Below are positions 11,112 through 32,375 of a DNA stretch of 46,574 bases, one piece after another. Each line of letters starts with the position of its first letter. Within the stretch, counting starts at the first letter, position 1. The DNA is taken from IMG/VR virus record IMGVR_UViG_3300045988_007914, one strand, 5' to 3'. Origin of the DNA: a virus. Made by a program: the position numbers and the translations under genes. The notes beneath the pieces were generated by a model that was not told the origin of the DNA, searched no databases, and saw only the letters and a list, made by a program, of their open reading frames with translations.

Positions 11112-11114
11112 GGT

Positions 11115-11507
11115 ATGGTGGCAAGAATCCCGAATTTGGAGCTTCTGCTCTATAAGGCACAACAGGCTCTCGCCCATGACCCGGACTTCGTTCAGAAGAT
11201 TGCCGAGATTAAGGAGAATGATAGCCACAAGAAAGTCTACCTCGATTTCAGTGTTGAGTGTTTCTCACAGATTTGGGGTAGCACCTGTACCGGGTTCGAT
11301 GTGACCGAAGCTGGTGAGCCTGTTATGGCTGGTTCGGCTATGACCGAGGAATACACCACCATCGTACATGAGAAGACCACAGATACCTACTGTGTGTTCT
11401 TCGGAGACCGCCCTTGCTACAAGGTGGATAACCCGAGCAACGAGTTCTATGAGGACATGATGAAGCGTCAGATGGCAAGCCTGTCTCGAGCCAAGAACCG
11501 CTATTAA
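11115..11507 (+). CDS. Hypothetical protein
   Basis: Track ORF. Confidence 0.55.
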   Translation: MVARIPNLELLLYKAQQALAHDPDFVQKIAEIKENDSHKKVYLDFSVECFSQIWGSTCTGFDVTEAGEPVMAGSAMTEEYTTIVHEKTTDTYCVFFGDRPCYKVDNPSNEFYEDMMKRQMASLSRAKNRY

Positions 11508-11520
11508 GGAGGAATGAGCG

Positions 11521-12258: not shown

Positions 12259-12661
12259 ACGGCGTAGGCAGAAGAAAGCCGGAATTAAGGTACAGAAAGA
12301 ACCCACTCTGAATCTGAAAGTCAGTGCTTTCGACCACATGGTCTCTCATGCGGAGAAGTCAGCCAAGGAAAGAGCGACAGCGGCGGCAATCCACGAAATC
12401 GACCGACAGATTCTTGAGCATGACGAAGCCTATTCTCTCGACATTGACGCAATGGTGCTGTGGACGCTTCATGTTTACCTCGGGTTCGGTAAGAAGCGTC
12501 TCGAGAGATTCTACCGGGATATGTTGAAGGAACACATTCACATGAGGGAGGTCTACGAAATGGACGATACCTACCCGGAACGCTACAAACTCAAGGAGCT
12601 TTGCAATGTCGATGTGGAAGCTCTGAATAATGAATTTAAGGAGGTTATACACAATGTATAA
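12245..12661 (+). CDS. Hypothetical protein
   Basis: Track ORF trimmed to the ATG at 12245, after AAGGAAGG. Confidence 0.55.
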   Translation: MNRAERRRQKKAGIKVQKEPTLNLKVSAFDHMVSHAEKSAKERATAAAIHEIDRQILEHDEAYSLDIDAMVLWTLHVYLGFGKKRLERFYRDMLKEHIHMREVYEMDDTYPERYKLKELCNVDVEALNNEFKEVIHNV

Positions 12662-12905
12662 GTTGAAGAACGTCAACGGCAGAGTGAACGCTCTGCTCCG
12701 CACCGGGAAGGACTTCGTAAAGAACAACCTCTCCGTGTTTGCGGCACAGCATATCATTGACACTGGTAAGCTGGTGGAATCTGACAACCCGGACTACCCT
12801 ATCTGCATTGACAATCAGTGGTATTTCGAGGATGTCGAGGTCAAAAAGACAGCGAAGAAAGCCCAGTTGAGTTCCATGTATGGGGAAATGAAGGAGGGCA
12901 AGTAA
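12654..12905 (+). CDS. Hypothetical protein
   Basis: Track ORF trimmed to the ATG at 12654, after AAGGAGG. Confidence 0.55.
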   Translation: MYKLKNVNGRVNALLRTGKDFVKNNLSVFAAQHIIDTGKLVESDNPDYPICIDNQWYFEDVEVKKTAKKAQLSSMYGEMKEGK

Positions 12906-13202
12906 ATGAGCCGAACTTTCTACTCCGAGTATGTGAATCATTGTCTGCGATTCTATGCTCGACATGACAGACCGAAGTTCCACTCGGAAGCAGACGAGCA
13001 TAACTGGGCGGCGTGTGACAGCGCACTCAAGTCGTTCTCCGATAATGACCGAGCAATGCTTCTGTATATCTATCGTGAGGGCGATACCGTCCCGGACAAT
13101 ATCTATCAGTTGGCGAAGTCCAAAGGTATCTCACAGGACAGCATTTGGAAGCTCGTAAATGAGCTGGAAAGAAAGGTGGCAAAGCGGCGTGGTTTACTAT
13201 GA
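12906..13202 (+). CDS. Small sigma-70-region-4-like HTH protein, candidate late-gene regulator
   Basis: ..RAMLLYIYREGDT..IYQLAKSKGISQDSIWKLVNELERKVA.. resembles a region-4 or ArpU/RinA-type HTH. Weak call. Confidence 0.4.
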   Translation: MSRTFYSEYVNHCLRFYARHDRPKFHSEADEHNWAACDSALKSFSDNDRAMLLYIYREGDTVPDNIYQLAKSKGISQDSIWKLVNELERKVAKRRGLL

Positions 13203-13983
13203 CAATATTCCCGAGGAATTAAAGAAACTCGACCAGTGGGTGTGTGCGAATGATGGAAGCAAAGTCCCCATGAAAGCATGGGAGAACGAAGCCGCTTCCT
13301 CCACCAACCCGGAAACATGGTCTGATTTCGAGACTGCTCTCGAATCGTACAACCAGCACTATTACGACTACTGTGGTTTCGTGTTTGCGGACAATGGGTA
13401 TGTCGGGATTGATATTGACGAGGGGTACGATGAAGACGGTCTTATGAGTGTCCTCGGGGCTGATATTGTCGGTAAGTGCCACAGCTATACGGAGAAATCC
13501 CGGAGTGGGCGTGGATTCCATATCCTACTCCGTGGAACTCTCCCCTTCAAGGGCAAGAACAATCTTGCTGGCGTGGAGATTTACAAGGCGGCTCGATACT
13601 TCATTATGACTGGGAACACCCTTCTCTACCGAGAAATCATCGAGAACCAAGAAGCGATTGATTATGTGGTGGAGAAATACTTCCCGGAAGCTCGAGAGAC
13701 CTCCGATAAGGTGGTTGTTGGGCGAGACAAGATATACGCCCCGGTATGGGAAGAACCTGTCGTAAATGGGCGTGTAAAGCTCCGTCCAGTATATCCAAGA
13801 ATCCCGGACGGAAGCCGCAATATCTGTCTCACCTCCCTCGCTGGTATGCTCCACAATCAAGGCTATTCCAAGTCACAGATTTACGAGGAGCTGTTGTACG
13901 CCAATACGGTTGCCTGTGACCCACCTCTTGATAGGAACGAACTGCGAACTATCTGCAACAGCGTCACGAGGTACAAGCGATGA
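13159..13983 (+). CDS. Bifunctional primase-polymerase (prim-pol) with a PriCT-like C-terminus
   Basis: ..GIDIDEG..SRSGRGFHIL..; start uncertain. Confidence 0.7.
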   Translation: MSWKERWQSGVVYYDNIPEELKKLDQWVCANDGSKVPMKAWENEAASSTNPETWSDFETALESYNQHYYDYCGFVFADNGYVGIDIDEGYDEDGLMSVLGADIVGKCHSYTEKSRSGRGFHILLRGTLPFKGKNNLAGVEIYKAARYFIMTGNTLLYREIIENQEAIDYVVEKYFPEARETSDKVVVGRDKIYAPVWEEPVVNGRVKLRPVYPRIPDGSRNICLTSLAGMLHNQGYSKSQIYEELLYANTVACDPPLDRNELRTICNSVTRYKR

Positions 13984-14180
13984 AGATTAAATGCTGTAAG
14001 GACTGCGTTGCTCCGAAGCGACACCCCGGCTGTCACGGTGTATGTCCCGAGTACCTATACGAAAAGGCACTGTGGGAGGAAGAAAAGAAAGTCATTCGTG
14101 AGGAACATAGGCGATTCAGTGAGCTATACGAGCAACGCTCCGAGGGAGTGCGAAAAGCACTTAAACATAGAAGACGATAA
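13980..14180 (+). CDS. Small Cys-rich protein
   Basis: MKIKCCKDCVAPKRHPGCHGVCPE.. Confidence 0.5.
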   Translation: MKIKCCKDCVAPKRHPGCHGVCPEYLYEKALWEEEKKVIREEHRRFSELYEQRSEGVRKALKHRRR

Positions 14181-14193
14181 CTTGCACAGAAAA

Positions 14194-14245
14194 GATAAAA
14201 ATTTATCTTTTAGGTATTGACATTCAATCTTGTATGTGTTATCTT
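14194..14245 (+). promoter_or_regulatory. Operator GATAAAAATTTATC plus an extended -10 promoter (TTGACA-17-TGT-TATCTT)
   Basis: Palindrome at 14194-14207, a 9-nt gap, TTGACA at 14217-14222, TATCTT at 14240-14245. The whole unit is homologous to 20600-20714. Confidence 0.55.
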
Positions 14246-14298
14246 ATAATCACAGCAAGGCAAAAACTTATCCAATAAAGATTAAGGAGGATTTTATC

Positions 14299-14886
14299 AT
14301 GGAAGTTATGAGAAACATGACTATTGACACTGAACTGTTTGAACTGGGAGACATTATCTCCTTCACACTCATCACCGGGGAGAAGGTTAAAGCGAAAGCC
14401 ATTCGTGAGACCCCGAACGGTATGCTTTTCATTACCGTTGACTGTCTCAAGGACGAGCAGAAAATGTTCGAGAATCCCGGCAGAGCCGAAAAGGTTGACT
14501 ACGAACATTCCGACCTTCGCAAGAAGCTGAACGGAGAAATCTTCGAGAGCTTCCCGGAGGAAATCAAGGGTCGCATGGTTGGTATGCGAGTAGGTCAGAC
14601 GAACTGCTTTGATATGCTCCGTATTCCTACCGAGCGTGAAATCTTCGGAGAGAACCCTTACGGTAAGGACGAGCCTGTATCTGTGAGACGCTTCTACGGC
14701 ATGGAGAACCGCCGTGAGCGTATCGCTTTCCAAGGCTCGGAGACAGGTACATGGGAATGGTACTGGTTGCAGAACAAGGTTGAGGATTCCGCTTCCCTTT
14801 TCGCCAGTGTCGACGGCGACGGTCGTGCGGCCTGCGGCGACGCTTCCGATTCTTTTGGCGTTCGCCCGGTCTTTCTCTTATCCTAA
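14299..14886 (+). CDS. DGR target protein 2 (195 aa, C-type-lectin/DUF6273-like fold, no signal peptide or structural N-domain seen)
   Basis: Track ORF trimmed to the ATG at 14299, after AAGGAGG. C-terminus ..WEWYWLQNKVEDSASLFASVDGDGRAACGDASDSFGVRPVFLLS carries VR2. Confidence 0.85.
   Translation: MEVMRNMTIDTELFELGDIISFTLITGEKVKAKAIRETPNGMLFITVDCLKDEQKMFENPGRAEKVDYEHSDLRKKLNGEIFESFPEEIKGRMVGMRVGQTNCFDMLRIPTEREIFGENPYGKDEPVSVRRFYGMENRRERIAFQGSETGTWEWYWLQNKVEDSASLFASVDGDGRAACGDASDSFGVRPVFLLS
14785..14869 (+). repeat. DGR variable repeat VR2
   Basis: 85 nt align without gaps to TR 42232-42316. All 18 mismatches fall on TR adenines. Confidence 0.9.
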
Positions 14887-14889
14887 AAT

Positions 14890-14910
14890 CTCGCCCCCTT
14901 GTGGGGCGAG
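14890..14910 (+). promoter_or_regulatory. GC hairpin 20 nt after VR2 (CTCGCCCC-CTTGT-GGGGCGAG)
   Basis: 8-bp stem and 5-nt loop. A near-identical copy lies at 41651-41671. Confidence 0.7.
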
Positions 14911-14936
14911 TTCAATAAAGAACGGAGGTGAATGTC

Positions 14937-15107
14937 GTGCAGACAAGATGTGAAGACTGTAAGAAAAGATGTGTCTGCCACGCTTGCCCTCTACATAATC
15001 AATGCCGCTACACTTTGAGGTGTAAATCCTCAAAGTGTTACTGCGGAAAATATAGGAGGTTATCAGAAAATGGAACAGAACAAAATCTGTCCTCTCCTCA
15101 CGACTAA
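14937..15107 (+). CDS. Possible Cys-rich small protein (56 aa, GTG start)
   Basis: GGAGGTG lies 6 nt upstream. Own translation: MQTRCEDCKKRCVCHACPLHNQCRYTLRCKSSKCYCGKY.. It is below the track cutoff. Confidence 0.3.
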   Translation: MQTRCEDCKKRCVCHACPLHNQCRYTLRCKSSKCYCGKYRRLSENGTEQNLSSPHD

Positions 15108-15237
15108 CACTGTCGTAGACGAGAATAACACCGTGAAAATTGGCACACAGCCTGTTTTCTGCGTAACCGAGCAGTGTTCGTGGTGGTTGGAGGACAAACA
15201 GAAATGTGCAATCGCAGTTATGGGAGGTAAGAAATAA
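15070..15237 (+). CDS. Small protein (55 aa), TAATG-coupled to the MazF-like gene
   Basis: AGGAGG RBS. MEQNKICPLLTTNTVVDENNTVKIGTQPVFCVTEQCSWWLEDKQKCAIAVMGGKK. Confidence 0.4.
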   Translation: MEQNKICPLLTTNTVVDENNTVKIGTQPVFCVTEQCSWWLEDKQKCAIAVMGGKK

Positions 15238-15695
15238 TGGCATATTACATGAATAAGAGCGTCCCGGCGAAGCGAGGAGATATTTTCTACATTTCCAACT
15301 CCAAGTGCTACGCCACAGACCCGAGTAATACAGAGGGAAGACCAGCAATCGTTGTCTCCTCTGATAAATTGAATGAACACGCAGATGTTGTCGAGGTAGT
15401 CTTTCTCACCACCAAGGAAAAGCGTCTCATGCCTACTCACGCAGAGGTGCTGTGCAAGATTCCTTCAACTGCTCTGTGTGAGACCATCTATACGGTCAAT
15501 AAGGACAGGCTGGGCGATTTCGTCCGTACCTGTACCGATAAGGAAATGGAGGGTGTCAATGCTGGAATCCTCTGCTCACTCGGTATCGCCGCTCCTGTGG
15601 TCGATGGTGAGCCTGTTGACAACTCTGTAACGGTCGAGAGGAATCTTTACAAGCACCTCTACGAAGACCTTCTCAATAAGGTAATGGCGAGGTGA
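15237..15695 (+). CDS. PemK/MazF-fold toxin-like protein with a ~40-aa C-terminal extension
   Basis: ..AKRGDIFYI..EGRPAIVVSSD..VVEVVFLTTK.. matches the MazF/PemK N-terminal pattern. Confidence 0.6.
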   Translation: MAYYMNKSVPAKRGDIFYISNSKCYATDPSNTEGRPAIVVSSDKLNEHADVVEVVFLTTKEKRLMPTHAEVLCKIPSTALCETIYTVNKDRLGDFVRTCTDKEMEGVNAGILCSLGIAAPVVDGEPVDNSVTVERNLYKHLYEDLLNKVMAR

Positions 15696-16108
15696 TGGAT
15701 ATGGGTAAAGGAGTTGATATGAGCTGGGAAGACATTCAGAATGAGTTCGACATTATGAACCGAATGTCGTGCCGCCCGGTTGGGTTGCAAAAAGTCCCCG
15801 GCAATCATATTTTCGATGAAGACCAGTCTGTGAAATGGAACAGAGAACAGGTCGAATTGAATAACAAGAAGTATCAGAGTGAAGTCGCTCGGCTCAACAC
15901 CGAGAAGAACAAGGCTCGAGATTCCGTCTACAATCTGATTATCGAAAAGATTCAGTATGAGGTGGGTCACAGGCTCTCTCGCAAGAAAGCGGAAGCCATT
16001 TGGAATCGTGCCTATGAGGACGGACACTCTTTCGGATTCTATGAAATCCGTTGCCGCCTGTCAGACCTTATTGATTTGGCGATTACTCTGCTGGGAGGTG
16101 ATAAGTAA
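15692..16108 (+). CDS. Hypothetical protein
   Basis: Track ORF. Confidence 0.55.
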   Translation: MMDMGKGVDMSWEDIQNEFDIMNRMSCRPVGLQKVPGNHIFDEDQSVKWNREQVELNNKKYQSEVARLNTEKNKARDSVYNLIIEKIQYEVGHRLSRKKAEAIWNRAYEDGHSFGFYEIRCRLSDLIDLAITLLGGDK

Positions 16109-17598
16109 TGCAAGAGCTTTTCGAGACACGCAACGGTCGTGTCATTATGGACGAGGACTTATCCTCAAAGATGTATCTGATTAAGCAGTATCACCCCGAG
16201 AAAGCAGACGAGACCAGCTCCGGGTTTGAGTGGTCTGAAATGGGTATGGCAAACCTGTTCGGCTTGCTCTACTCTCACGAAGCTCGCTACTGCCCGGAAC
16301 ACAAGAGCTGGTACACCTATCACGAGGGAGCATGGCGTAAGGACGAGGGAGCAATTCTCGTGTCCGAGAAGATTAAAGATTTCGTCCGTCTAATGATTCT
16401 CTACTGCGGAGAAATCGAGGACGATGATACCCGAAAGTCCTACACCGGGTTCGTAAATAAGATGGGTGACAGGCGTATGCGAGATAGAATCCTCAAGGAC
16501 GCAACAGGTGAGCTTCGTATCTCTGCTGTGCAGTTTGACGCAGACCCCTATCTCATTAACTGTCTCAATGGTACATACGACCTTCGAGACTTCTCCTTCC
16601 GGGAACATAGCTGGGACGATTTTCTCACCATGCAGACAGCATTTAGCCATACTATCTCCAAGACGGTTAAGTGTAAACGCTGGGAGAAGTTCATTAAAGA
16701 GGTCACACAGAATGACGAGGACAAAGCAGACTTCCTTCAAAGGGCTTTGGGCTACTCCATGCTGGGTATGAGCAATGAGGAGTGTATGTTCATTCTTCAT
16801 GGTAAGACCACTCGTAACGGTAAGTCTACTCTGCTCAACACCATCGAGACTATGCTCGGTGACTATGCCAAGGTTGCCCCGGTCGGTATGATTTGCCGTG
16901 GAGACCGTCAGAAGGACGCAGAAGCCGCCAGTCCTACCCTTGCCGGGTTGAAGGGCAAACGCTTCGTAACAATGTCCGAGAGCAACGAATACGGCAAGCT
17001 GGACGAGGAGAAAATCAAACAGCTTACAGGTGGTGAGGAAATCTCCGCTCGTGCGCTGTATCAGTCGGCAATCACATTCAAGCCGCAGTTTACGTTATGG
17101 CTTTCCTGTAACGACCTTCCGATGGTGACAGACAAGTCCCTGTTCGCTTCCGAGCGTATCAAGGTGGTAGAGTTCAACCGCCACTTCTCCCCGGAGGAAC
17201 AGGACACTCACCTCAAGGACGAGCTGTGTGAGCAGTCCAGCATGAGCGGCATTTTCATGTGGCTGGTGCGTGGGTATATCCACTACAAGGAGCGTGGACT
17301 TGCTATGAGCGGCAGTCTGAAATCGGTTGTCACCAAGTACGAGCGTGATAACGACCTCGTGTTGCAGTTCCTCGAGAACCGCTGTGAGCGTGTCCCGGAG
17401 GAAAGCTCACCGACCGTTATCAAGGCGAAAGACCTGTACAACGCTTTCAAGATTTGGGCGAAGTCCGAGGGTGCTTATATCCTGTCGGCTCGTAAGTTCA
17501 ATTCTGAAATGGAGCGTCACCCGGAGTGGTTCGACAGGAAATCGACCTCGAGTGGTTATGCAACCTATTGTGGTCTGAAATTGAAGGAGGTGCTGTAA
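16108..17598 (+). CDS. D5/P4-family primase-helicase (SF3 NTPase)
   Basis: ..DPYLINCLNGTYDL.., Walker A HGKTTRNGKST. Confidence 0.85.
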   Translation: MQELFETRNGRVIMDEDLSSKMYLIKQYHPEKADETSSGFEWSEMGMANLFGLLYSHEARYCPEHKSWYTYHEGAWRKDEGAILVSEKIKDFVRLMILYCGEIEDDDTRKSYTGFVNKMGDRRMRDRILKDATGELRISAVQFDADPYLINCLNGTYDLRDFSFREHSWDDFLTMQTAFSHTISKTVKCKRWEKFIKEVTQNDEDKADFLQRALGYSMLGMSNEECMFILHGKTTRNGKSTLLNTIETMLGDYAKVAPVGMICRGDRQKDAEAASPTLAGLKGKRFVTMSESNEYGKLDEEKIKQLTGGEEISARALYQSAITFKPQFTLWLSCNDLPMVTDKSLFASERIKVVEFNRHFSPEEQDTHLKDELCEQSSMSGIFMWLVRGYIHYKERGLAMSGSLKSVVTKYERDNDLVLQFLENRCERVPEESSPTVIKAKDLYNAFKIWAKSEGAYILSARKFNSEMERHPEWFDRKSTSSGYATYCGLKLKEVL

Positions 17599-18258
17599 AT
17601 GAGCGGACAAATCGCATTGCGTCCGTCATACTGGGCGAGCGTTTCCGGCGGCAAAGATAGTTTGTATATGCTGAATTACATACTGCATAACCTCGATAGA
17701 TACCCTCTCAACGGAGTTGTCCATTTTGAACTCGAAATCGACTATCCGTTTATTCACGATGTTATCGACTACATGGAATCCGAATGTAAGAGGTTCGGTA
17801 TTCAGTTCGTGAGAATCAAACCCCGGAAGTCATGGGGAGAACTGTATGATAAATACGGTTTCCCAACGAGAAAAGCAAGGTGGTGCAACGGTCACTATAA
17901 ACTGGACGCAAGTAGACAGTTATCCGAGTGGTTGAATGAAGTCGGTTTTTATGTAGTGCATTATATCGGGTATTGTGCTGACGAGGAACGCCGTTTCAAC
18001 AAACGGTTGAGTGCCAAAAAGTTAGAGATATACCCTCTTGCAGAAAACGGTATTAACGAAGATGTGATTTTAGAATGGGCGAAGACACAACCTATCTTCA
18101 ATCACTACTACGAGATTAACCAGCGTTGCGGTTGTATGTACTGCCCCATGTCCTCTTATCTGAACTTCGCATACCTGTATAAATACTATCCCGATAATTT
18201 CCAGTTTATGATTGGAAAAATGCGAGAAACCGAAAGATTGAGAGAGAGAGCTTGGTAG
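17599..18258 (+). CDS. PAPS-reductase/PP-loop family protein, apparently truncated at a (GA)n tract
   Basis: SVSGGKDS PP-loop, C-terminal CGCMYCP. The +1 frame stays open for 44 more codons after GAGAGAGAGAG at 18240-18250. Confidence 0.75.
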   Translation: MSGQIALRPSYWASVSGGKDSLYMLNYILHNLDRYPLNGVVHFELEIDYPFIHDVIDYMESECKRFGIQFVRIKPRKSWGELYDKYGFPTRKARWCNGHYKLDASRQLSEWLNEVGFYVVHYIGYCADEERRFNKRLSAKKLEIYPLAENGINEDVILEWAKTQPIFNHYYEINQRCGCMYCPMSSYLNFAYLYKYYPDNFQFMIGKMRETERLRERAW

Positions 18259-18363
18259 ACCGTTCTCTGTGATTTCTTCAAATCCTAAATACAACTCGTA
18301 TTATTTGGAGAATATCATCAAGACAAAATGGCTCAAAAAGCTCAATGAAATGGAGGAAGCACA

Positions 18364-18591
18364 ATGCAGTTAGCAGAAAAACAGGAGTTGGTACGGCTCT
18401 TGAACCTGTACCAAGCTGACCTTCTCATGGACAACGACAACAATATCCGGGAAGCCGCAAAGCACTCGGGTAAGAAATGGGAAGGTACTTACAAAACTGG
18501 TGTGAAAGCCCAGTATGAACACGCTCGTGTCATTGCCGCAAAGCTGTCGGTAGAAATCGGCAAGTCGGTAAAATCTTACTACGAGCTGTAA
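18364..18591 (+). CDS. Hypothetical protein
   Basis: Track ORF with a GGAGG RBS. Confidence 0.5.
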   Translation: MQLAEKQELVRLLNLYQADLLMDNDNNIREAAKHSGKKWEGTYKTGVKAQYEHARVIAAKLSVEIGKSVKSYYEL

Positions 18592-18605
18592 AGGAGGACA
18601 CTGTT

Positions 18606-18923
18606 ATGAATATGGTTTGCAAATGTGGTGGCAAGGAGTTCTTCACCGAGGAACACGGCAATCAGACCGGGCTTTACTGCTCCGCTTGTGGTAAGTGGCA
18701 GAAATGGCTCAAGAAGGACGAGATACGACTTTTCAATCACGGTGTCAAGGTGGAGAACGCTTCTCTGCTGGAACGTCTCAAGGCTCGTATCGAGGAGAGT
18801 GCAATCAAGGTATCTACCGTTAAAGCTCCGCACACCTACATGAAAGCTGTCGGCACGAGGGAGCTTGAAAAGATTCTCGAGGAGGAGTTGGGAAATGAAG
18901 ACACGAAACGACATACTTGCTGA
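18606..18923 (+). CDS. Hypothetical zinc-ribbon protein
   Basis: CKCGG..CSACG. Confidence 0.5.
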   Translation: MNMVCKCGGKEFFTEEHGNQTGLYCSACGKWQKWLKKDEIRLFNHGVKVENASLLERLKARIEESAIKVSTVKAPHTYMKAVGTRELEKILEEELGNEDTKRHTC

Positions 18924-19077
18924 ATACGTCCGCAGTCGTTACCCCGAGATTGAGAAGACCTTCGACTTTGCCGCCTACTCTGCTGGTGTGGCTCTTAAAG
19001 AGTTCGGCAGATGTATCAAGGAAGCGTTCGGAGGTACTGATAAGGAGGTAGACAATGTTTGCGATTCAGAACATTAA
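18895..19077 (+). CDS. Hypothetical protein
   Basis: Track ORF trimmed to the ATG at 18895. Confidence 0.45.
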   Translation: MKTRNDILAEYVRSRYPEIEKTFDFAAYSAGVALKEFGRCIKEAFGGTDKEVDNVCDSEH

Positions 19078-19291
19078 GACCGGGAAGTTTTTGTATGGCA
19101 CAGACTACCGATACCGTCCTCCTCACCAGCGTACCAGCAAGACGAAAATGCTCACTTACAGCTCTATCGCAGAAGCCGCACACGACTTTTGGGTTAAGAG
19201 GAACTGCGGCAAAGATTACAGAATCGTTGTGCTGAAATCGGTTGAGGTTAAGCGAGTGATTGACTACTACGAGAGCAAAAACTTCATTTAA
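19055..19291 (+). CDS. Hypothetical protein
   Basis: Track ORF. Confidence 0.5.
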   Translation: MFAIQNIKTGKFLYGTDYRYRPPHQRTSKTKMLTYSSIAEAAHDFWVKRNCGKDYRIVVLKSVEVKRVIDYYESKNFI

Positions 19292-19300
19292 CACAAAGCG

Positions 19301-19314
19301 GATAAGTATTTATC
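19301..19314. promoter_or_regulatory. Fourth copy of the GATAA-N4-TTATC palindrome (GATAAGTATTTATC), followed by a degenerate copy of the P14/P20 promoter
   Basis: 19335-19362 (TATCTGAAAAGGATTGAAAAACAATCTT) parallels 20618-20645, but no good -10 follows. Confidence 0.4.
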
Positions 19315-19392
19315 AAAAACGACATTTACCAAACTATCTGAAAAGGATTGAAAAACAATCTTTTTATAAGAACGAGTTGTTCTTATTATTAC

Positions 19393-19503
19393 AGTAGTTA
19401 AAGTAGCTGTTCTCAAGGTATTGCGTGTAACTTCCTCTATATAGAAAAATCCCTATATATAGAAGTTATACGCAAAAACCGATTTTCAACTACTTCTACT
19501 ACT
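19393..19503. repeat. Nested-palindromic repeat element, copy A (weaker dyad symmetry extends over 19381-19521)
   Basis: AGTAGTTAAAGTAG...CTACTTCTACTACT termini and inner arms GCGTGTAACTTCCTCTATATA / TATATAGAAGTTATACGC. Homologous to 23082-23190 and, inverted, to 46041-46149. Confidence 0.85.
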
Positions 19504-19533
19504 GCAATAAGAATAAGAAGAAAGGAGACTGAA

Positions 19534-20253
19534 ATGGATATAGATAAGCTGTTAGCAGACAGTTCCGGGGATTCCGAGGAGACTGTTGCGACTAAGGAGA
19601 CTGTTTCCAGCGAGGAGACTGCAATCAGTCCTCGTACCGGGAAACCGATTCAGAAGAAATATGCACCAAAGAAGAAAGGTAAGCCCCGAGGAGGTAATAA
19701 CTGGTTGAAGCCGGAAAACATCGCTCCGGGGCTTGAAGCTGGTGATAACACGAAGTTTCTCTCCGTCAATATGGCGTTGATGAATATGCCGGACATTGAC
19801 ATGGAGAATCCGTTGGAGGTGCAACAGCGACTTTCCGACTATTTTGCTTTGTATGCACAGTATGACATGAAACCTACGGTTGTGGGTATGGCTATTGCGC
19901 TGAATGGACACAACAGACAGTGGCTTTATGCGGTTACACATGACGTACCGGGAGGTGGTGCTGGATATAAGATTGCGTTGCCGCCGGAGGTAGCTGACGT
20001 AATAAAAAAGGCGTACTTTTTGCTCGAAAATTTGTGGGAAAACTATATGCAAAGTGGCAAGGTCAACCCGGTAGCTGGTATCTTCCTCGGCAAGAACAAC
20101 TATGGCTACCAAGACAAGACCGAGTACGTTCTCACACCGAACCAGCAGAACGACAACGACTATTCCGCTGATGAAATCAGAGAACGCTACATTGCAAGCG
20201 ACCAGCAGAAGCGACTTTCAGCAAGCAACTCTGACGAGGACACGAGCGACTAA
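19534..20253 (+). CDS. terS: Terminase small subunit
   Basis: ..KPTVVGMAIALN.. HTH-like part and ..AGIFLGKNNYGYQDK.. hallmark. First gene after the early region. Confidence 0.75.
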   Translation: MDIDKLLADSSGDSEETVATKETVSSEETAISPRTGKPIQKKYAPKKKGKPRGGNNWLKPENIAPGLEAGDNTKFLSVNMALMNMPDIDMENPLEVQQRLSDYFALYAQYDMKPTVVGMAIALNGHNRQWLYAVTHDVPGGGAGYKIALPPEVADVIKKAYFLLENLWENYMQSGKVNPVAGIFLGKNNYGYQDKTEYVLTPNQQNDNDYSADEIRERYIASDQQKRLSASNSDEDTSD

Positions 20254-20325
20254 GCGACTTTCGCCCACGCTCCGACTTTCCGACTATCAGCCGAGCGACT
20301 ATCGACTTTCGACTATCGACTATGA
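20247..20325 (+). repeat. Array of 8 CGACT(A/T)(A/T) motifs straddling the terS stop; the last four form a 7-bp tandem
   Basis: CGACTAA, CGACTTT, CGACTTT, CGACTAT, then CGACTAT CGACTTT CGACTAT CGACTAT at 20296-20323. Confidence 0.7.
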
Positions 20326-20329
20326 AATT

Positions 20330-20354
20330 GCTCCGGGATTTCCCGGGGCTTTTT
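20330..20354 (+). terminator. Rho-independent terminator
   Basis: GCTCCGGG-ATTT-CCCGGGGC followed by TTTTT. Confidence 0.65.
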
Positions 20355-20442
20355 CTATGCAAAAATTCACGGAAATTTTCAGAAAATCAGCCGGACACGG
20401 CACTTACCTCTTTAACACTTTAATACAATAAAGCAAAATGCA

Positions 20443-20480
20443 CCCCGGGCGGCGTGGGTGAATGTGTCCGGCGGCGTTCC
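20443..20480 (+). repeat. Left direct repeat bounding the foreign cassette
   Basis: CCCCGGGCGGCGTGGGTGAATGTGTCCGGCGGCGTTCC recurs at 22493-22538 with a 14-nt insertion and 2 differences. The 15-mer TGTGTCCGGCGGCGT recurs exactly at 22545-22559. Confidence 0.6.
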
Positions 20481-21995: not shown

Positions 21996-22304
21996 ATGAT
22001 ACATTATAAATTTGTTTCGTGGGACGTTCCCGCATTTGAAACGATTTTAACCGGGCGTATTCCGGCGGCGTTGCTTGCCGCTGATAATGGGAATTTACAG
22101 CCGTTGAAGGATTTACACATTGCAACACAAACCCCGGTTTATAAATGTTCCGGCTGGTGTATTCCTTTTGCGGAATATATGCGCCGCTTTTGGGTGAAAA
22201 CAAAATATTACGGCATTATTAAAATGTACGCATTGAATAAAACAGATATTAGAAAAGAGTTGAAAAGTAATGTAATTGAAATTATGGAGGTTAAAAAGAA
22301 TTGA
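21996..22304 (+). CDS. Hypothetical small protein (cassette gene 5)
   Basis: Track ORF 21816..22304 trimmed to the ATG at 21996. Confidence 0.55.
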   Translation: MIHYKFVSWDVPAFETILTGRIPAALLAADNGNLQPLKDLHIATQTPVYKCSGWCIPFAEYMRRFWVKTKYYGIIKMYALNKTDIRKELKSNVIEIMEVKKN

Positions 22305-22369
22305 TAATATTGTGTATTTTAATTTTTCCGTTCGTTGTGTTAGCTGATTTACTGAAAATGAATAAATAA
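22301..22369 (+). CDS. Possible 22-aa hydrophobic peptide (TTG start), paralogue of 24372..24482
   Basis: Own translation: MIILCILIFPFVVLADLLKMNK. It shares ILIFPF.VL....KMN with the other peptide. Confidence 0.3.
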   Translation: MIILCILIFPFVVLADLLKMNK

Positions 22370-22374
22370 TTTTA

Positions 22375-22402
22375 CAGCCCCGGTTATATGCCGGGGCTTT
22401 TT
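22375..22402 (+). terminator. Rho-independent terminator closing the cassette
   Basis: CAGCCCCGG-TTATATG-CCGGGGCT followed by TTTTT. Confidence 0.7.
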
Positions 22403-22492
22403 CGTGCGTGTACCGCCGCCCGGTAAACGTAAAATATAATCAAGAATAGCCGCCCGGGTATGCGTGGCAAGCCTTGAACGCTTGTGAACGTG

Positions 22493-22718
22493 CCCCGGGC
22501 TTGTGTCGTTCGTGGGCGTGGGTGCATTGTGTCCGGCGTTCGTTGTGTCCGGCGGCGTGGGTTGTTCGGTCGTTCGTGTCGTTGTGTCCGGCTTGCGTTG
22601 TGGGGCGTTTGTGGGCGTTTTCCGGGGCTTTTGTGCGTGGGTGTATGTTTTGATGGGTTTACCGTTTCCCGGGCTTGTGGCGGCGTTCTATGCGGTGTAT
22701 GGGTATGCCCCCGGGGGG
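22493..22718 (+). other. Adenine-depleted GT-rich tract (7 A in 226 nt; none in 22527-22644) with internal repeats
   Basis: Counted by eye. TTGTGTCCGGC occurs 3 times, GCGTGGGT(G/T) 3 times, and CGTTCGT several times. Confidence 0.9.
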
Positions 22719-22788
22719 ATTGACAAGGGGCGAAACCGGGCGAGGGAGTACGCTGAATATTCTCAAAAAATAAAAAGACCCTATAAAA

Positions 22789-22840
22789 GATAATTTCTTA
22801 TCCTATCAGTGTTGACAATCTCCCTTTCTCGTGCTATACT
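22789..22840 (+). promoter_or_regulatory. Operator GATAATTTCTTATC plus an extended -10 promoter (TTGACA-17-TGC-TATACT)
   Basis: Palindrome at 22789-22802, a 9-nt gap, TTGACA at 22812-22817, TATACT at 22835-22840. Confidence 0.55.
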
Positions 22841-22872: not shown

Positions 22873-23082
22873 ATGGTTAAGAATAACATTGAAGTTGATG
22901 TAAAGGTGAAGCTCCTCGAAGCTGGGAAGACACAACAGCAGTTGGGTGAAGAAATCGGCACTACTGGACAGTACATCAACCGAGTTCTCAAGAAGAATGG
23001 TGGAATCGTGAACGATACCTTCGTGAAAATGATGGACGCTCTCGGTTATAACATCGTTCTCACCTACGAAAAGAAGGATTGA
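22873..23082 (+). CDS. Small XRE-family HTH regulator (69 aa)
   Basis: ..GKTQQQLGEEIGTTGQYINRVLK.. HTH. AGGAGG RBS. Confidence 0.7.
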   Translation: MVKNNIEVDVKVKLLEAGKTQQQLGEEIGTTGQYINRVLKKNGGIVNDTFVKMMDALGYNIVLTYEKKD

Positions 23083-23190
23083 AGTAGTTAAAGTAGTTGA
23101 AAACAGCATTTTGCGTGTAACTTCCTCTTAGTACACGCATATATAGCAAAAGTTACCGCAATTTTTGATTTTCTACTACTTTTACTACTT
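23082..23190. repeat. Nested-palindromic repeat element, copy B
   Basis: AAGTAGTTAAAGTAGTTGAAAA...TTTTCTACTACTTTTACTACTT. It starts on the last base of the HTH stop codon and ends 17 nt before the recombinase GTG. Confidence 0.85.
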
Positions 23191-23207: not shown

Positions 23208-23963
23208 GTGAAAGCGATTGGTTATATCCGTGTATCTACGGAGGAACAGTCTGCGGACGATAAATACGGTATCGAGGTACAGAAACAGGCGATTTCAGAT
23301 TATGCCAACAGGAATGATTTTGAAATCGTGTGCTGGCTGACCGATACAATCAGCGGTGCGAAGGACAACCGCCCGGAACTGGACAAGATTCTCTACAATG
23401 CAGACCAGCTCCCGGCACATGAAGCCGTGATTGTGTTCAAGAATGACCGTGTTGCTCGTGACACAAAATTGTATTTCTACTACTTCTACACGCTCGAGAA
23501 GCGGAACGTGAAGCTGTTGTCTACCGAGGAGCATTTCTCGGAGGGTGATGATTTCGCCAACATCTACCGCTCTCTGCTGATGTTCGTTGCTGAACAGGAA
23601 CGAAAGAACATTGCTCTGCGTACCGGGCGTGGGCGGTCTCTCAAGGCACAGTGCGGTGGGTATTCCGGCGGCAACAAGCCGTATGGTTATTACTGCGTAG
23701 ACGGTATGCTCATGCAGAACCCGGAAGAACGACCTATCGTGGAGACGGTATTCCGAGAGCATGACGAGAATCACACCTCTTTGCTGGACATTTGCGAGAT
23801 TCTATACGATGGTGGGTATCGAACCCGAAAAGGCAAGAGATTTCAGCCGTCCACCATTCGAGGAATCCTATCTAACCGTCCCTTCTATGAGGGTAAGTAC
23901 AAATATGGAGACATGGGCTGGGTGCAGGGCGTACACTCCCCGATTCTCCCATTGGAGGTGTAG
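23208..23963 (+). CDS. Second serine recombinase, short form (251 aa): catalytic plus partial recombinase domain, no zinc ribbon or coiled coil
   Basis: MKAIGYIRVSTEEQ.. (Ser nucleophile), ..FKNDRVARD.., ..GGNKPYGYY... GTG start after GAGGAGG. Confidence 0.8.
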   Translation: MKAIGYIRVSTEEQSADDKYGIEVQKQAISDYANRNDFEIVCWLTDTISGAKDNRPELDKILYNADQLPAHEAVIVFKNDRVARDTKLYFYYFYTLEKRNVKLLSTEEHFSEGDDFANIYRSLLMFVAEQERKNIALRTGRGRSLKAQCGGYSGGNKPYGYYCVDGMLMQNPEERPIVETVFREHDENHTSLLDICEILYDGGYRTRKGKRFQPSTIRGILSNRPFYEGKYKYGDMGWVQGVHSPILPLEV

Positions 23964-24544: not shown

Positions 24545-24557
24545 TTTGGAGGTATTT

Positions 24558-26192
24558 ATGAAAGAGTTACTTGAAAAAATTCTCGGGCAAATAAAAAAGA
24601 CACCCTCCGGGGTAAGAGCCTACGAGGATTTATACCATATCTGTCTCGAGACACAGAAGACAGACATTCCCCTATCCGTAGAGTATCTGAAAAAGCTGTC
24701 AGACATTATCGAGAATCGGATTCCGCAGTCTGAAACAGACAAGGAGCTTCGCTCCCTGTTTATGCTTCACAAAAAGGTTCTGCTTGCCGCCGCCCCATTC
24801 GATTTTGAAAGCTATCTGCTCTATGTCGAATGGGAACGTGAGCCGGACAAGAAGTTTTATGTCCCTCGCCGTGAGGTCATGCACCCTGTCGTACAGGCAA
24901 TGCAAGATTTGATTGACGATAGACTGGACTTGCTGACGATTTCCATGCCGCCCGGTACTGGCAAGTCCACTCTCGGTATCTTCTTCTTGTCGTGGGTCAT
25001 GGGTCGATTCCCGGATTCGCAGTCCCTTGCGTCTGCTCACTCGGGTATGCTGACACGCTCCTTCTATGACGGTGTATATCAGATTATCACCGACAGCGAG
25101 TACCTGTGGGCTGATGTGTTCCCGGGAGTAAAGATGGCGGCAACGAACTCCAAGGAAGAAACCATCGACCTTCACAAGAAGCACCGATTCTCTACTCTGA
25201 CCTGTCGAGCAATCAATGCTTCATTGACTGGTGCTACTCGATGTGACAAAATCCTCTACGCCGATGACTTGTGTTCCGGCATTGAGGAAGCTATGAGCAA
25301 GGAGCGATTGGATAAGCTGTGGAGTGCCTACACCAATGACCTTAAATCTCGAAAAAAGGAAGGTGCGAAGGAAATCCATATCGCTACCCGATGGTCTGTC
25401 CATGATGTTATCGGTCGATTGGAGAATCAGTACGGCGGTGATTCCCGAGCGAAGTTCATTGTTCTTCCGGCACTGGACGCAGACGGTGAAAGTAATTTCA
25501 ATTACACCTACGGTGTCGGATTCAGCCGCCACTATTTCGAGGACATGAGGAACAACCTTGATGAAGCGTCTTTCAAGGCTCTGTTTATGAATCAGCCTAT
25601 CGAGCGTGAGGGTCTGCTCTACGATGTGGACGAACTGCGCCGATATTTTGAGCTTCCGGCAGAAGACCCGGACGCTATTATCGGTATTTGTGATACCAAG
25701 GACAAGGGTTCTGACTACGCTTTCCTCCCGGCGGCGTATGTGTACGGTAATGACTACTACATTGACGATTGTGTCTGTGATAACAGCTTACCGAACATCG
25801 TTGACGCTCGATTGGTGGACATACTGCTCCGATGTAAAGTCAAAATGTGCCGTTTCGAGAGCAATTCCGCTGGTGGTCGTGTTGCCGAAAAGGTGCAGAA
25901 CGAGGTTAAGAAGCGTGGCGGTATCACTCGCATTACGACCAAGTTCACTACTGCCAATAAGGAGACAAAAATCATCGTCAACAGTGCATGGGTCAAGGAA
26001 CACTGCCTGTTCAAAGACGATAGCCTGTATAAACGTCAGAGTGATTACGGTCGCATGATGGATATGCTCGGCTCTTACACCGTGGCTGGTAAAAACAAGC
26101 ACGATGATGTTCCCGATGGTATGGCTATGCTGGCAGAGTTCGCACAAAGTCTGTCCGGCGCAAGGGTTGAGGTATTTCAGAGACCGTGGTAA
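24558..26192 (+). CDS. terL: Terminase large subunit
   Basis: Walker A MPPGTGKST, Walker B ILYADDL, C-terminal nuclease part. ATG at 24558 after GGAGG. Confidence 0.9.
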   Translation: MKELLEKILGQIKKTPSGVRAYEDLYHICLETQKTDIPLSVEYLKKLSDIIENRIPQSETDKELRSLFMLHKKVLLAAAPFDFESYLLYVEWEREPDKKFYVPRREVMHPVVQAMQDLIDDRLDLLTISMPPGTGKSTLGIFFLSWVMGRFPDSQSLASAHSGMLTRSFYDGVYQIITDSEYLWADVFPGVKMAATNSKEETIDLHKKHRFSTLTCRAINASLTGATRCDKILYADDLCSGIEEAMSKERLDKLWSAYTNDLKSRKKEGAKEIHIATRWSVHDVIGRLENQYGGDSRAKFIVLPALDADGESNFNYTYGVGFSRHYFEDMRNNLDEASFKALFMNQPIEREGLLYDVDELRRYFELPAEDPDAIIGICDTKDKGSDYAFLPAAYVYGNDYYIDDCVCDNSLPNIVDARLVDILLRCKVKMCRFESNSAGGRVAEKVQNEVKKRGGITRITTKFTTANKETKIIVNSAWVKEHCLFKDDSLYKRQSDYGRMMDMLGSYTVAGKNKHDDVPDGMAMLAEFAQSLSGARVEVFQRPW

Positions 26193-31926: not shown

Positions 31927-32375
31927 GTGATTCGCTGTTGACAGATGAATCCGCTAACAAGGGGAGCGAGCGTGAGAATCGCTCTGCTCCCCCTTCTTAT
32001 TCGGAGATTTTTCTCGCAAAGTTCCCCTATTACTTATCAATAGGCATGACGGAAGAACAATACTGGGATAGAGATTCCACTCTCGTGAAGTCCTACCGCA
32101 AAGCGGAGGAACTTCGCAAAGAGAGGGTCAATCAAGAAATGTGGTTACAGGGTATGTACATCTATGACGCTATTTCTCGTCTGTCTCCGATTCTTCGTGC
32201 TTTCGCCAAGAAGGGAACTAAAGCCCAACCTTATGTTGAAGAAGCATATCCCATCAATAAAAAGACGGTGGAGGAAGCAGAACTCAAGAAGGAAAAGGCT
32301 AAGTCTGAAAAGGGTCTGCGCTATATGCAAGCGTATATGGTACAGGCAAATAAGCAGTTACAAGAAAGGAAGTGA
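31920..32375 (+). CDS. -1 frame extension of the chaperone (T-like part of a G/GT pair)
   Basis: Track ORF in the -1 frame relative to 31597..31926, with no good RBS of its own. Confidence 0.6.
   Translation: MVSDSLLTDESANKGSERENRSAPPSYSEIFLAKFPYYLSIGMTEEQYWDRDSTLVKSYRKAEELRKERVNQEMWLQGMYIYDAISRLSPILRAFAKKGTKAQPYVEEAYPINKKTVEEAELKKEKAKSEKGLRYMQAYMVQANKQLQERK

What the first reader, a model, noticed from the sequence alone, without database searches (positions are those of the whole stretch)
22493..22718. 226-nt adenine-depleted GT-rich tract with iterated motifs
I count only 7 A in 22493-22718 and none in the 118 nt from 22527 to 22644. The tract is roughly 45 percent G and 35 percent T. It contains three TTGTGTCCGGC units, three GCGTGGGT(G/T) units (a fourth lies at 20453-20461) and several CGTTCGT units. 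All three + frames are open only because stop codons need A, so the two track ORFs here are not evidence of coding. Hypotheses: (a) a cluster of Chi-like recombination-hotspot or anti-exonuclease sequences. Known Chi sites are GT-rich (E. coli GCTGGTGG, L. lactis GCGCGTG), and the tract lies about 2.3 kb to the right of the candidate pac region. That is where the right end of a headful-packaged, few-percent terminally redundant chromosome would fall, and the orientation would be correct for an enzyme entering from that end. (b) An iteron or protein-binding array. (c) A G/U-rich structured or G-quadruplex-forming RNA or DNA. (d) Much less likely, a fossil of adenine-erasing DGR activity.
Basis: partly seen in the sequence, partly recalled or inferred. 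Interest (0 to 1): 0.65.

Follow-up and report, generated by a model that had tools for sequence, protein, structure and literature searches.

The report
Adenine-free GT-rich spacer in prophage
A real, non-coding stretch of about 230 bases that almost lacks adenine sits between the two DNA-packaging genes of a gut-bacterial prophage; related phages keep its composition but not its sequence, and it most likely serves as a recombination junction for swapping accessory genes, though its function is not proven.

Summary
Window 22493-22718 has 7 A in 226 nt, including a 118-nt A-free run (chance about 1e-17).

What it is not:
- Not coding: relatives differ by 1-, 2- and 11-nt indels, and there is no 3-nt periodicity.
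- Not a structured RNA: no Rfam hit, and fold z-scores are positive.
- Not a G-quadruplex array: no canonical motif, and G4Hunter scores fall below shuffles.
- Not a variable region of the phage's DGR, although a complete DGR with two VRs is present.

What it is:
- A spacer in the accessory-gene region between terS and terL of a Dorea-type prophage.
- About 32 related viral contigs carry an equivalent tract of 90-390 nt, always A-poor on the terL-sense strand.
- There are at least 8 mutually unalignable sequence "dialects" with the same composition. A few relatives have an ordinary spacer instead.
- Homology breakpoints cluster inside it, and one relative (L018) is a demonstrable recombinant that crossed over within it.

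Best reading (confidence about 0.3): a low-complexity GT-rich recombination junction or adaptor. The Chi-cluster idea is not excluded, but its motifs are rare in 48 kb of host flank. Other rivals remain: a protein-binding array, an antisense Rho barrier, a slippage by-product, and DGR adenine erasure.

The parts
22489..22718 (+). Core adenine-depleted GT-rich tract (7 A in 230 nt; 118-nt A-free run at 22527-22644)
   Evidence: Homologous tracts occur in about 32 related loci and in the Dorea prophage L086.
22449..22488 (+). Left shoulder of the tract. It begins with the conserved GCCGCCCGGG box that starts the tract in most dialects.
20440..20480 (+). Mini-tract. It is a 41-nt copy of the same dialect (GCACCCCGGGCGGCGTGGGTGAATGTGTCCGGCGGCGTTCC) at the left edge of the accessory cassette. 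Homology with at least 6 relatives breaks at 20453.
22301..22369 (+). Conserved 22-codon hydrophobic small ORF (L/M-IILCILIFPFVVLADLLKMNK) that ends the cassette just upstream of the tract
   Evidence: It is conserved at the amino-acid level in divergent dialect phages, and lies on the opposite strand in L031 and L047.
22376..22398 (+). Intrinsic-terminator-like hairpin plus T run between the small ORF and the tract
22437..22448 (.). Operator-like palindrome TAATCWWGATTA. It is an A-containing island that is conserved next to or inside the tracts of several dialects.
   Evidence: window, L023, L025, L028, L059, L029
22707..22718 (.). C5-(GGN)-G5 GC palindrome/hairpin that closes the tract in nearly all dialects
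22742..22776 (.). Conserved right-hand module: hairpin GAGGGAGTACGCTGAATATTCTC followed by an A run. It occurs in 12 sequence clusters, sometimes without a long A-poor tract.
22789..22840 (+). GATAA-N4-TTATC operator-like repeat and sigma-70-like promoter (TTGACA-17-TATACT) of the downstream HTH gene
22873..23082 (+). HTH_3 (Xre-type) regulator gene immediately downstream
20375..20391 (.). Left arm of a 17-bp inverted repeat (16/17 complementary to 22343-22359) flanking the 1.95-kb cassette
   Evidence: I7. The cassette is inverted in L031 and L047.
22343..22359 (.). Right arm of that inverted repeat, inside the 3' end of the small ORF
   Evidence: I7
19534..20253 (+). terS-like gene (weak GP3_package match), followed by a (CGACTWT)n array at 20250-20325 and a terminator at 20330-20349
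24546..26192 (+). Terminase large subunit gene. It was used as the anchor to find relatives and it defines the polarity of the tract.

Best explanation
The tract is a non-coding, compositionally constrained, low-complexity GT-rich spacer. It forms the boundary between the conserved late/packaging backbone and a hyper-mosaic accessory-gene cassette lying between terS and terL. I propose that it acts as a recombination junction, or "adaptor".

Proposed mechanism:
- All members of this phage group carry, at the same two backbone positions, a practically three-letter (in effect G/T-dominated) sequence built from the same short words: YGTGGG, GGCGGCGTT, GGCGTT, GCTGKTG.
- Any two co-resident phages therefore share many 8-25-nt microhomologies there.
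- Because the region is non-coding, the register and length of an exchange do not matter.
- GT-rich single strands are also the substrates on which RecA-family recombinases form their most stable filaments, and the complementary C/A strand is almost structure-free.
- Exchanges inside the tracts would swap or reshuffle the cassette. Exchange between the two tracts of one genome would keep them in the same dialect.

Shown: the tract is real; it is conserved in composition and polarity but not in sequence; it is non-coding; it evolves about 2 times faster than its flanks; it concentrates homology breakpoints, including one clear intra-tract crossover.

Inferred: that recombination is promoted by the sequence itself rather than merely tolerated there, and that this is why adenine is kept out.
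For: 1. Conservation of composition without sequence. 32 IMG/VR loci and the prophage in a Dorea ammoniilytica genome (L086) carry A-poor tracts of 90-394 nt between terS and terL, always on the terL-sense strand. They form at least 8 dialects with G .38-.42, T .30-.35, C .20-.26, A .03-.06.
2. Shared short words across dialects: CTGTGGG is 16-fold over expectation, and GGCGGCG occurs in 7 of 10 dialects.
3. Two tracts in one genome share a dialect (window 20440-20480 versus 22516-22563; L031; L045).
4. Breakpoints. Six distinct homology-breakpoint clusters lie in the 270-nt tract, out of 52 in 15 kb (about 1 expected), plus a recurrent break at 20453 in the mini-tract.
5. L018 equals type B on the left and type A on the right, with the crossover in the shared TGTGGGGCGTTCTGTGGGCGTT. 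L177 joins an unrelated cassette to the last 70 nt of the tract.
6. The tract is more variable than its flanks (0.33 versus 0.14 variant alleles per column; 90.0% versus 94.5% pairwise identity; more indels). A-creating changes are relatively under-represented.
7. Low single-strand structure. For ssDNA the MFE is -23.3 kcal/mol (+) and -14.8 kcal/mol (-) over 230 nt of 63% GC. The minus strand is less stable than all 200 shuffles. As RNA, only about 2% of genome windows fold more weakly than the minus strand.
8. Literature. RecA and Rad51 prefer GT-rich/TGG-repeat DNA (PMC3763553 and its refs 17 and 18). Oriented Chi clusters near phage ends are a precedent for recombination-promoting sequence clusters (PMC12315714).
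Against: - Breakpoint clustering may only reflect that junctions are tolerated in a non-coding boundary. The surrounding 2.8-kb cassette region is itself rich in breakpoints (about 9 per kb, versus about 22 per kb in the tract).
- The in vivo importance of GT-rich "pairing islands" was disputed (refs 22 and 23 cited in PMC3763553).
- Being less structured than shuffles holds for type A and L023 but not for types B, C and L059.
- Microhomology does not require complete exclusion of adenine, so the most extreme feature is only loosely explained.
- Some relatives keep the same flanks with an ordinary-composition spacer (L027, 23-25% A), so the tract is dispensable.
- No experiment links the tract to recombination frequency.
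Confidence: 0.3

Rival explanations
1. Chi-like cluster. The repeated GT-rich words would be recognised by the host AddAB/RecBCD-type nuclease entering from a DNA end to the right (a headful end or a packaging cut). This would stop degradation and load RecA.
For: - Polarity is fixed relative to the packaging genes in all relatives.
- The position is just downstream of terS and its repeat array.
- The motifs are GT-rich like known Chi sites. The L045 tract even contains two exact GCTGGTGG octamers.
- GGCGGCG is skewed 6:0 in host flanks and 14:4 in the phage outside the tract.
- Terminally clustered, oriented Chi sites are a precedent in phages LLS and MD8 (PMC12315714).
Against: - The hallmark motifs of the window tract are essentially absent from 48 kb of GC~43% host flank, where a Chi at usual density would give about 10 copies.
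- The phage has its own ERF + YqaJ module, whereas Chi-rich phages typically lack one.
- Dialects differ among phages with nearly identical backbones.
- Polarity can be explained by descent alone.
- The packaging mode and physical ends are unknown.
Confidence: 0.15
2. Non-adaptive by-product. The tract would be a degenerate minisatellite produced by slippage or unequal exchange of A-free 8-12-nt units next to GC hairpins. Turnover would keep it homogeneous, with no function of its own.
For: - Cryptic simplicity: TRF detects only short arrays of period 8, 10 and 19, and autocorrelation is weak at lags 2, 10 and 12.
- Length varies from 0 to 394 nt among relatives.
- It evolves fast, with many indels.
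- It is dispensable in L027.
Against: - At least eight unalignable dialects all stay at 3-6% A, although G>A changes occur freely (17 of 79 variant alleles).
- No clean tandem structure is present.
- Other intergenic regions of the same phage are A-rich.
Confidence: 0.18
3. Array of binding sites (iterons) for a phage or host DNA-binding protein, for example TerS, the adjacent HTH regulator, the serine recombinase or a primase.
For: - Exact motif repeats TTGTGTCCGGC x3 and GCGTGGGTG x3 occur, and both are present again together in the mini-tract.
- Dialects are concordant within a genome.
- Periodicity of about 10-12 nt is weak but present.
- Conserved operator-like palindromes and hairpins flank the tract.
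Against: - Dialect does not co-vary with TerS (71-98% identity within type A, 76-93% within type B), HTH (100% in both) or the recombinase.
- Motifs are degenerate.
- The tract is absent in relatives that keep those proteins (L027, L036-L041).
- Binding sites would not require excluding adenine throughout.
Confidence: 0.12
4. Polar transcription element. Leftward (antisense) transcripts of the tract would be C-rich, U-free, untranslatable and unstructured, making an ideal Rho-loading site. Rightward transcripts would be G/U-rich and Rho-resistant. The tract would therefore block antisense transcription but not sense transcription across the cassette boundary.
For: - The minus-strand RNA is 42% C and 20% G.
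- Its MFE of -39 kcal/mol is among the weakest 2% of genome windows despite 63% GC, and its z-score is +1.84.
- It has no start or stop codon.
- It has the strongest G>C skew in the phage at the 150-230-nt scale.
- It lies between a terminator and a promoter.
- In L031 and L047 it lies downstream of the inverted, leftward-transcribed cassette.
Against: - Rho sites need C>G but have no need to exclude U.
- At the 80-nt scale the skew is hardly exceptional (0.30 versus 0.275 elsewhere).
- The 41-nt mini-tract is too short to load Rho.
- In the window arrangement no obvious leftward transcript enters it; there is only a 9/12 promoter match.
Confidence: 0.12
5. DGR-linked adenine erasure. The tract would have been, or would still be, copied through the phage's adenine-mutagenic reverse transcriptase (as a self-templated or burnt-out template/target). 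Adenines would then be lost and replaced mainly by G and T.
For: - The phage has a complete DGR: RT 42387-43598, TR 42236-42321, VR1 41550-41635 and a remote VR2 at about 14789-14874.
- By my hand count from the sequences, its VRs are themselves 5-9% A, and TR adenines are replaced mostly by T or G and rarely by C. Such replacement would turn average DNA into roughly G37 T37 C25, close to the tract.
- The tract has the same strand polarity as the VRs and ends in a GC hairpin.
- All tract-bearing contigs long enough to judge also carry the RT.
Against: - The tract has no similarity to the TR (score 18 versus a null mean of 20).
- No TR-like partner exists in the window.
- There is no IMH. The hairpin has a 5-bp stem and a 0-3-nt loop, against the defining 7-10-bp stem and 4-nt loop.
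- Variation among close relatives is ordinary and transition-dominated, not A-specific.
- Co-occurrence with the RT is confounded by phylogeny.
- DGR cDNA synthesis is known to need the cognate TR-spacer RNA.
Confidence: 0.06

Closest known systems
Terminally clustered, oriented Chi sites in Rec-less lambdoid phages (LLS, MD8) and P1 (PMC12315714)
   Same: GT-rich short motifs repeated in one orientation in a phage genome, concentrated near the packaging region or genome end, and linked to recombination.
   Different: [quoted passage not shown]
- Here the feature is a compact non-coding A-free block with degenerate, lineage-specific words.
- This phage has ERF + YqaJ.
- The words are rare in sampled host DNA.
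GT-rich 'preferred/universal pairing sequences' of RecA/Rad51 (Tracy & Kowalczykowski 1996, 1997, as cited in PMC3763553)
   Same: The composition is G- and T-rich and A-poor, with TGG/GTG words; this is the substrate on which RecA filaments are most stable.
   Different: Those were defined in vitro on oligonucleotides, and their natural 'islands' were later attributed to codon usage. The tract is a discrete natural non-coding element, and its C content is not depleted.
Module-boundary ('linker') sequences of mosaic temperate phages (from my own knowledge: Susskind & Botstein's modular theory and the boundary sequences reported in lambdoid phages; not checked in the paper library)
   Same: Short conserved non-coding sequences at the edges of exchangeable gene modules where recombinant joints fall.
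   Different: Known boundary sequences are conserved in sequence and have ordinary composition. Here composition and short words are conserved, not sequence, and adenine is excluded.
DGR variable region with downstream hairpin (PMC3240598)
   Same: An A-depleted stretch on the coding-sense strand followed by a GC hairpin, in a phage that has a working-looking DGR.
   Different: There is no template repeat homology and no IMH, the hairpin has the wrong geometry, the tract is non-coding, and it is 2-4 times longer than the VRs.
Rho utilisation (rut) sites
   Same: The complementary strand would give a C-rich, G-poor, unstructured, untranslated RNA of more than 80 nt.
   Different: rut sites are not U-free, and no antisense transcript or Rho dependence has been shown.

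Membership tests
Protein-coding gene | Reading frame preserved among relatives, with 3-nt periodicity | tested here: not met
   Indels of 1, 2 and 11 nt occur among 8-14 type-A copies. The lag-3 autocorrelation z-score is 0.65. No RBS is present.
Structured non-coding RNA (Rfam families) | Match to a covariance model, or folding energy below shuffles | tested here: not met
   There is no hit at the gathering threshold and none within the tract at E<=10. RNA fold z-scores are +0.84 (+) and +1.84 (-).
G-quadruplex-forming element | Four G3+ runs with short loops, or G4Hunter score above the composition expectation | tested here: not met
   No dialect contains G3+N1-7 repeated 4 times. G4Hunter maxima are 1.1-1.6, below shuffles in 10 of the 11 tracts tested (L042 is the exception). 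The number of G runs matches the composition expectation.
Chi-site cluster | The motif is over-represented and strand-skewed in the host chromosome | tested here: inconclusive
   In 48 kb of GC~43% host flank, GCGTGGG, CTGTGGG, TGTGGGG, GCGTGGGT and GGCGGCGT occur 0-1 times, and GGCGGCG occurs 6:0. The sample is small and the hosts are heterogeneous (GC 37-65%).
Chi-site cluster | Single orientation relative to the DNA end where the nuclease enters | tested here: inconclusive
   Orientation is invariant relative to terL in all relatives, but the physical ends and packaging type are unknown.
Chi-site cluster | Recognition by host AddAB/RecBCD, with protection from degradation | not testable with these tools
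   This needs biochemistry or genetics.
DGR variable region | Homology to the template repeat, with differences only at TR adenines | tested here: not met
   The A-wildcard Smith-Waterman score against the TR is 18, against a null mean of 20.2; VR2 scores 133 as a positive control. No TR-like partner is found anywhere in the window.
DGR variable region | IMH at the 3' end, plus a hairpin with a 7-10-bp GC stem and a 4-nt loop 4-34 bp downstream (PMC3240598) | tested here: not met
   The tract shares only GGCGTTC with the TR/VR 3' end. Its hairpin is C5-(0-3 nt)-G5.
Iteron / protein-binding array | Repeated, spaced copies of one site, co-varying with a cognate binding protein | tested here: inconclusive
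   Exact 9-11-nt repeats are present but periodicity is weak. Dialect does not co-vary with TerS, HTH or the recombinase.
Tandem repeat / minisatellite | Head-to-tail copies of a unit | tested here: not met
   TRF finds only three short arrays (2-3 copies, 68-92% match) covering part of the tract.
Rho utilisation site (on the minus-strand transcript) | An unstructured, untranslated RNA of at least 80 nt with C>G | tested here: met
   The minus-strand RNA has C 42% and G 20%, an MFE in the weakest 2% of windows, and no start codons. This is a compositional test only; transcription and Rho dependence were not tested.
Mosaic module-boundary sequence | Recombinant joints between related phages fall in it | tested here: met
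   Six breakpoint clusters lie in 270 nt, against about 1 expected. L018 is a crossover recombinant and L177 has a junction inside the tract.

The most novel reading that the evidence does not exclude
The tract is a non-coding by-product or substrate of the phage's own diversity-generating retroelement. In this reading it has been repeatedly copied through the adenine-mutagenic reverse transcriptase, as a self-templated or burnt-out template, so that adenines were erased and replaced by G/T. That would be the first DGR footprint outside a protein-coding variable region.
Probability: 0.06. Interest if true: 0.85.

Novelty: new variant of a known kind. Interest (0 to 1): 0.52.

Why it matters
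Temperate phages of gut Firmicutes are highly mosaic, yet the sequences at which modules are exchanged are poorly defined. Here the exchange point is marked by composition (no adenine on one strand) rather than by a conserved sequence. It sits at both edges of an accessory-gene cassette whose small genes have their own promoters.

If the tract really promotes exchange, it would be a simple, recognisable signature for finding cassette hot spots in uncultured phages. It would also be a natural test case for the long-debated in vivo role of GT-rich pairing sequences.

If it instead proves to be a Chi cluster, it would reveal the unknown Chi of Lachnospiraceae. If it is a DGR footprint, it would extend what these retroelements do. 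A lysogen exists in culture (Dorea ammoniilytica Sanger_02), so all of these readings are directly testable.

Tried and rejected
- Coding: rejected on indels and the absence of 3-nt periodicity.
- Known RNA family or stable RNA structure: rejected.
- G-quadruplex array: rejected.
- VR of the resident DGR, or a hidden TR partner: rejected. Derivation from the ordinary spacer of L027 by A substitution found only short motif matches.
- General strand-mutation bias: rejected. Other intergenic DNA of the phage is A-rich, and the only other low-A zones are the transmembrane repeats of the tape-measure gene and the DGR VRs.
- Similarity to deposited phages or plasmids: none.
- Selection for unstructured ssDNA beyond composition: true for type A and L023 only, so not general.
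- Inferring the host Chi: failed. L088 turned out to be DNA of a Pygmaiobacter-like MAG carrying only a terL fragment. The host flanks obtained through the holin look-up are short and come from hosts of 37-65% GC.
- Packaging type from TerL/TerS: no PDB relatives, and only weak T7-like/psiM2 and SPP1-portal signals.
- Literature searches found no description of adenine-free spacers in phages.

Full report
OBSERVATION. The tract is real and extreme.
- Window 22493-22718 contains 7 A, 46 C, 95 G and 78 T. Positions 22527-22644 form a 118-nt run without A, and the next longest A-free run in the window is 38 nt.
- With 28% A in the window, the probabilities are 1.5e-17 for the run and 5e-23 for <=7 A in 226 nt.
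- TTGTGTCCGGC occurs 3 times, and GCGTGGGT(G/T) occurs 3 times plus once at 20452-20460. Both exceed shuffles. CGTTCGT (3 copies) is not enriched genome-wide.
- The mini-copy at 20440-20480 carries both main motifs side by side.
- The other low-A zones of the window are ordinary. One is the transmembrane repeats of the tape-measure gene (34.1-35.0 kb). The other is a DGR variable region (14787-14879).

CONTEXT. All genes run on the + strand.
- The order around the tract is as follows:
  - terS-like gene, 19534-20253.
  - A (CGACTWT)n array and a terminator.
  - The mini-tract.
  - A 2-kb cassette of small genes with their own sigma-70-like promoters.
  - A conserved 22-codon hydrophobic ORF, 22301-22369.
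  - A terminator, 22376-22398.
  - An operator-like palindrome and a GCCGCCCGGG box.
  - The tract.
  - A C5/G5 hairpin.
  - A conserved hairpin plus A run, 22742-22776.
  - An operator and promoter.
  - An HTH gene, 22873-23082.
  - A truncated serine recombinase, a DUF5067 lipoprotein, and terL at 24546-26192.
- The phage also encodes an ERF domain (in 5003-7567), a YqaJ exonuclease, a PriCT primase, a D5-type helicase and a complete DGR.
- It is a prophage. A 99%-identical terL and a type-A tract occur in a Dorea ammoniilytica genome (L086).
- Metagenome contigs show host genes starting 300-800 bp after the holin.

COMPARATIVE ANATOMY.
- Of 82 IMG/VR loci recovered with TerL, 32 carry an A-poor tract of 90-394 nt between terS and terL. 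It is always A-poor on the terL-sense strand.
- The tracts fall into at least eight dialects that cannot be aligned with each other. All share the same composition (G .38-.42, T .30-.35, C .20-.26, A .03-.06) and the same short words: CTGTGGG, GGCGGCGTT, GGCGTT, GCTGGTG.
- Where a genome has two tracts they use the same dialect (window, L031, L045).
- In L031 and L047 the cassette is inverted, yet the tract keeps its polarity and lies directly after terS. In the window a 17-bp inverted repeat (20375-20391 / 22343-22359) flanks the cassette.
- The tract is facultative. L027 has the same flanking modules with a spacer of 23-25% A. L177 keeps only the last 70 nt. Relatives with 84% or 65% TerL identity have none.
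- Nothing similar exists in GenBank phages or PLSDB plasmids.

WHAT IT IS NOT.
- Not coding. Close relatives differ by indels of 1, 2 and 11 nt, and there is no 3-nt periodicity.
- Not a known or stably folded RNA.
- Not a G4 array. No canonical motif occurs in any dialect, and G4Hunter maxima are below shuffles in 10 of the 11 tracts tested.
- Not a clean tandem repeat.
- Not a DGR variable region. There is no similarity to the TR, no TR-like partner, no IMH, and the hairpin geometry is wrong.

WHAT THE DATA SUGGEST.
- Among 14 distinct type-A copies the tract evolves about twice as fast as its flanks: 0.33 versus 0.14 variant alleles per column, and 90.0% versus 94.5% pairwise identity. A-creating substitutions are relatively under-represented. 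Composition, not sequence, is what is maintained.
- Homology breakpoints between the window and its relatives cluster in the tract: 6 distinct clusters in 270 nt out of 52 in 15 kb. Another recurrent break lies at 20453 in the mini-tract.
- L018 is a clear recombinant. It is type B on the left and type A on the right, with the crossover in a shared 22-nt GT-rich word.
- As single strands both strands fold weakly. The C/A strand of type A is weaker than all 200 shuffles, although this excess is not general.
- RecA-family proteins form their most stable filaments on GT-rich/TGG DNA (PMC3763553).
- I therefore favour, at about 0.3, a low-complexity GT-rich recombination junction or adaptor that lets divergent phages exchange the terS-terL cassette.

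RIVALS.
- Chi cluster (0.15). Polarity, position and motif flavour fit, and there is precedent (PMC12315714). Against it, the hallmark motifs are almost absent from 48 kb of host flank, the phage has its own Rec module, and the DNA ends are unknown.
- Slippage by-product (0.18). This explains the length variation and dispensability, but not the persistent A exclusion in eight dialects.
- Protein-binding array (0.12). Exact repeats exist, but there is no co-variation with TerS, HTH or the recombinase.
- Polar Rho/antisense barrier (0.12). The antisense RNA is compositionally an ideal rut site, but U exclusion is unexplained and no antisense transcript is known.
- DGR adenine erasure (0.06). This is attractive because the phage has a DGR whose VRs are 5-9% A, with A replaced mostly by T or G (my hand count from the sequences), and because the RT co-occurs in every contig that can be assessed. 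No sequence evidence links the tract to the retroelement.

VERDICT. This is a genuine, statistically extreme, conserved-by-composition non-coding element of a gut prophage family. It is most probably a recombination junction. I class it as a new variant of known recombination-associated GT-rich sequences. The function is unproven, and a cultured lysogen is available for decisive tests.

Noticed in passing
window 42387-43598 (RT), 42236-42321 (TR), 41550-41635 (VR1), about 14789-14874 (VR2): A complete diversity-generating retroelement with two targets. VR1 lies at the 3' end of the DUF6273 gene 40745-41647. A remote VR2 lies 27 kb away at the 3' end of a second DUF6273 gene, 14230-14886. All TR/VR mismatches are at TR adenines. 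Each VR is followed about 16 nt later by a GCGCCCC-CTTGT-GGGGCGC hairpin.
   Followed up: partly
window 22301-22369: A conserved 22-codon hydrophobic small ORF (LIILCILIFPFVVLADLLKMNK) ends the accessory cassette. It is conserved at the amino-acid level in divergent relatives and is on the opposite strand in L031 and L047. It could be a small membrane peptide or a type I toxin-like gene.
   Followed up: partly
window 20375-20391 and 22343-22359; L031 about 2500-5350: A 17-bp inverted repeat (16/17) flanks the 1.95-kb cassette, and the cassette is inverted in L031, L047, L058 and L065. A truncated serine recombinase/invertase-like gene (23208-23963, 251 aa) lies 0.9 kb away. Both orientations were not seen among close relatives.
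   Followed up: partly
window 19385-19505 and 23082-23190: A palindromic element of about 110 bp (AAGTAGTTAAAGTAG...CTACTTTTACTACTT around GCGTGTAACTTCCTCT) occurs twice in direct orientation, upstream of terS and upstream of the recombinase-terL operon. It may be a late regulatory element.
   Followed up: no
window 20250-20325: An array of 7-nt CGACTWT repeats lies immediately after the terS stop codon and is longer in L031 and L047.
   Followed up: no
window 5003-7567 and 7567-8601: An 854-aa ORF combines a weak family-B DNA polymerase match with a C-terminal ERF single-strand-annealing domain. It is followed by a YqaJ exonuclease, so the phage has its own recombination module.
   Followed up: no
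L195-L204 (positions about 10300-20267): The identical 88-aa holin marks the right prophage end in contigs whose host flanks differ in gene content and in GC (37-65%), several of them next to smpB. This suggests several insertion sites or hosts, or chimeric assemblies. No integrase gene was found in the window.
   Followed up: partly
window 22742-22776 and equivalents in 12 sequence clusters: The hairpin GAGGGAGTRNGCYGAATAYTCYC followed by AAAAAAKAAAAAG is strongly conserved, with compensatory G-U/G-C changes, even where the A-poor tract is missing (L027). Its function is unknown.
   Followed up: partly
window 34111-35044: A second low-A zone is simply the repeated transmembrane segments of the tape-measure protein (ORF 32372-37066).
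   Followed up: yes
L088: A Pygmaiobacter-like MAG contig carries only a 231-residue fragment of this terL (98% identity) among ordinary host genes (dnaX, recR). This is either a prophage remnant or a binning/assembly artefact.
   Followed up: partly
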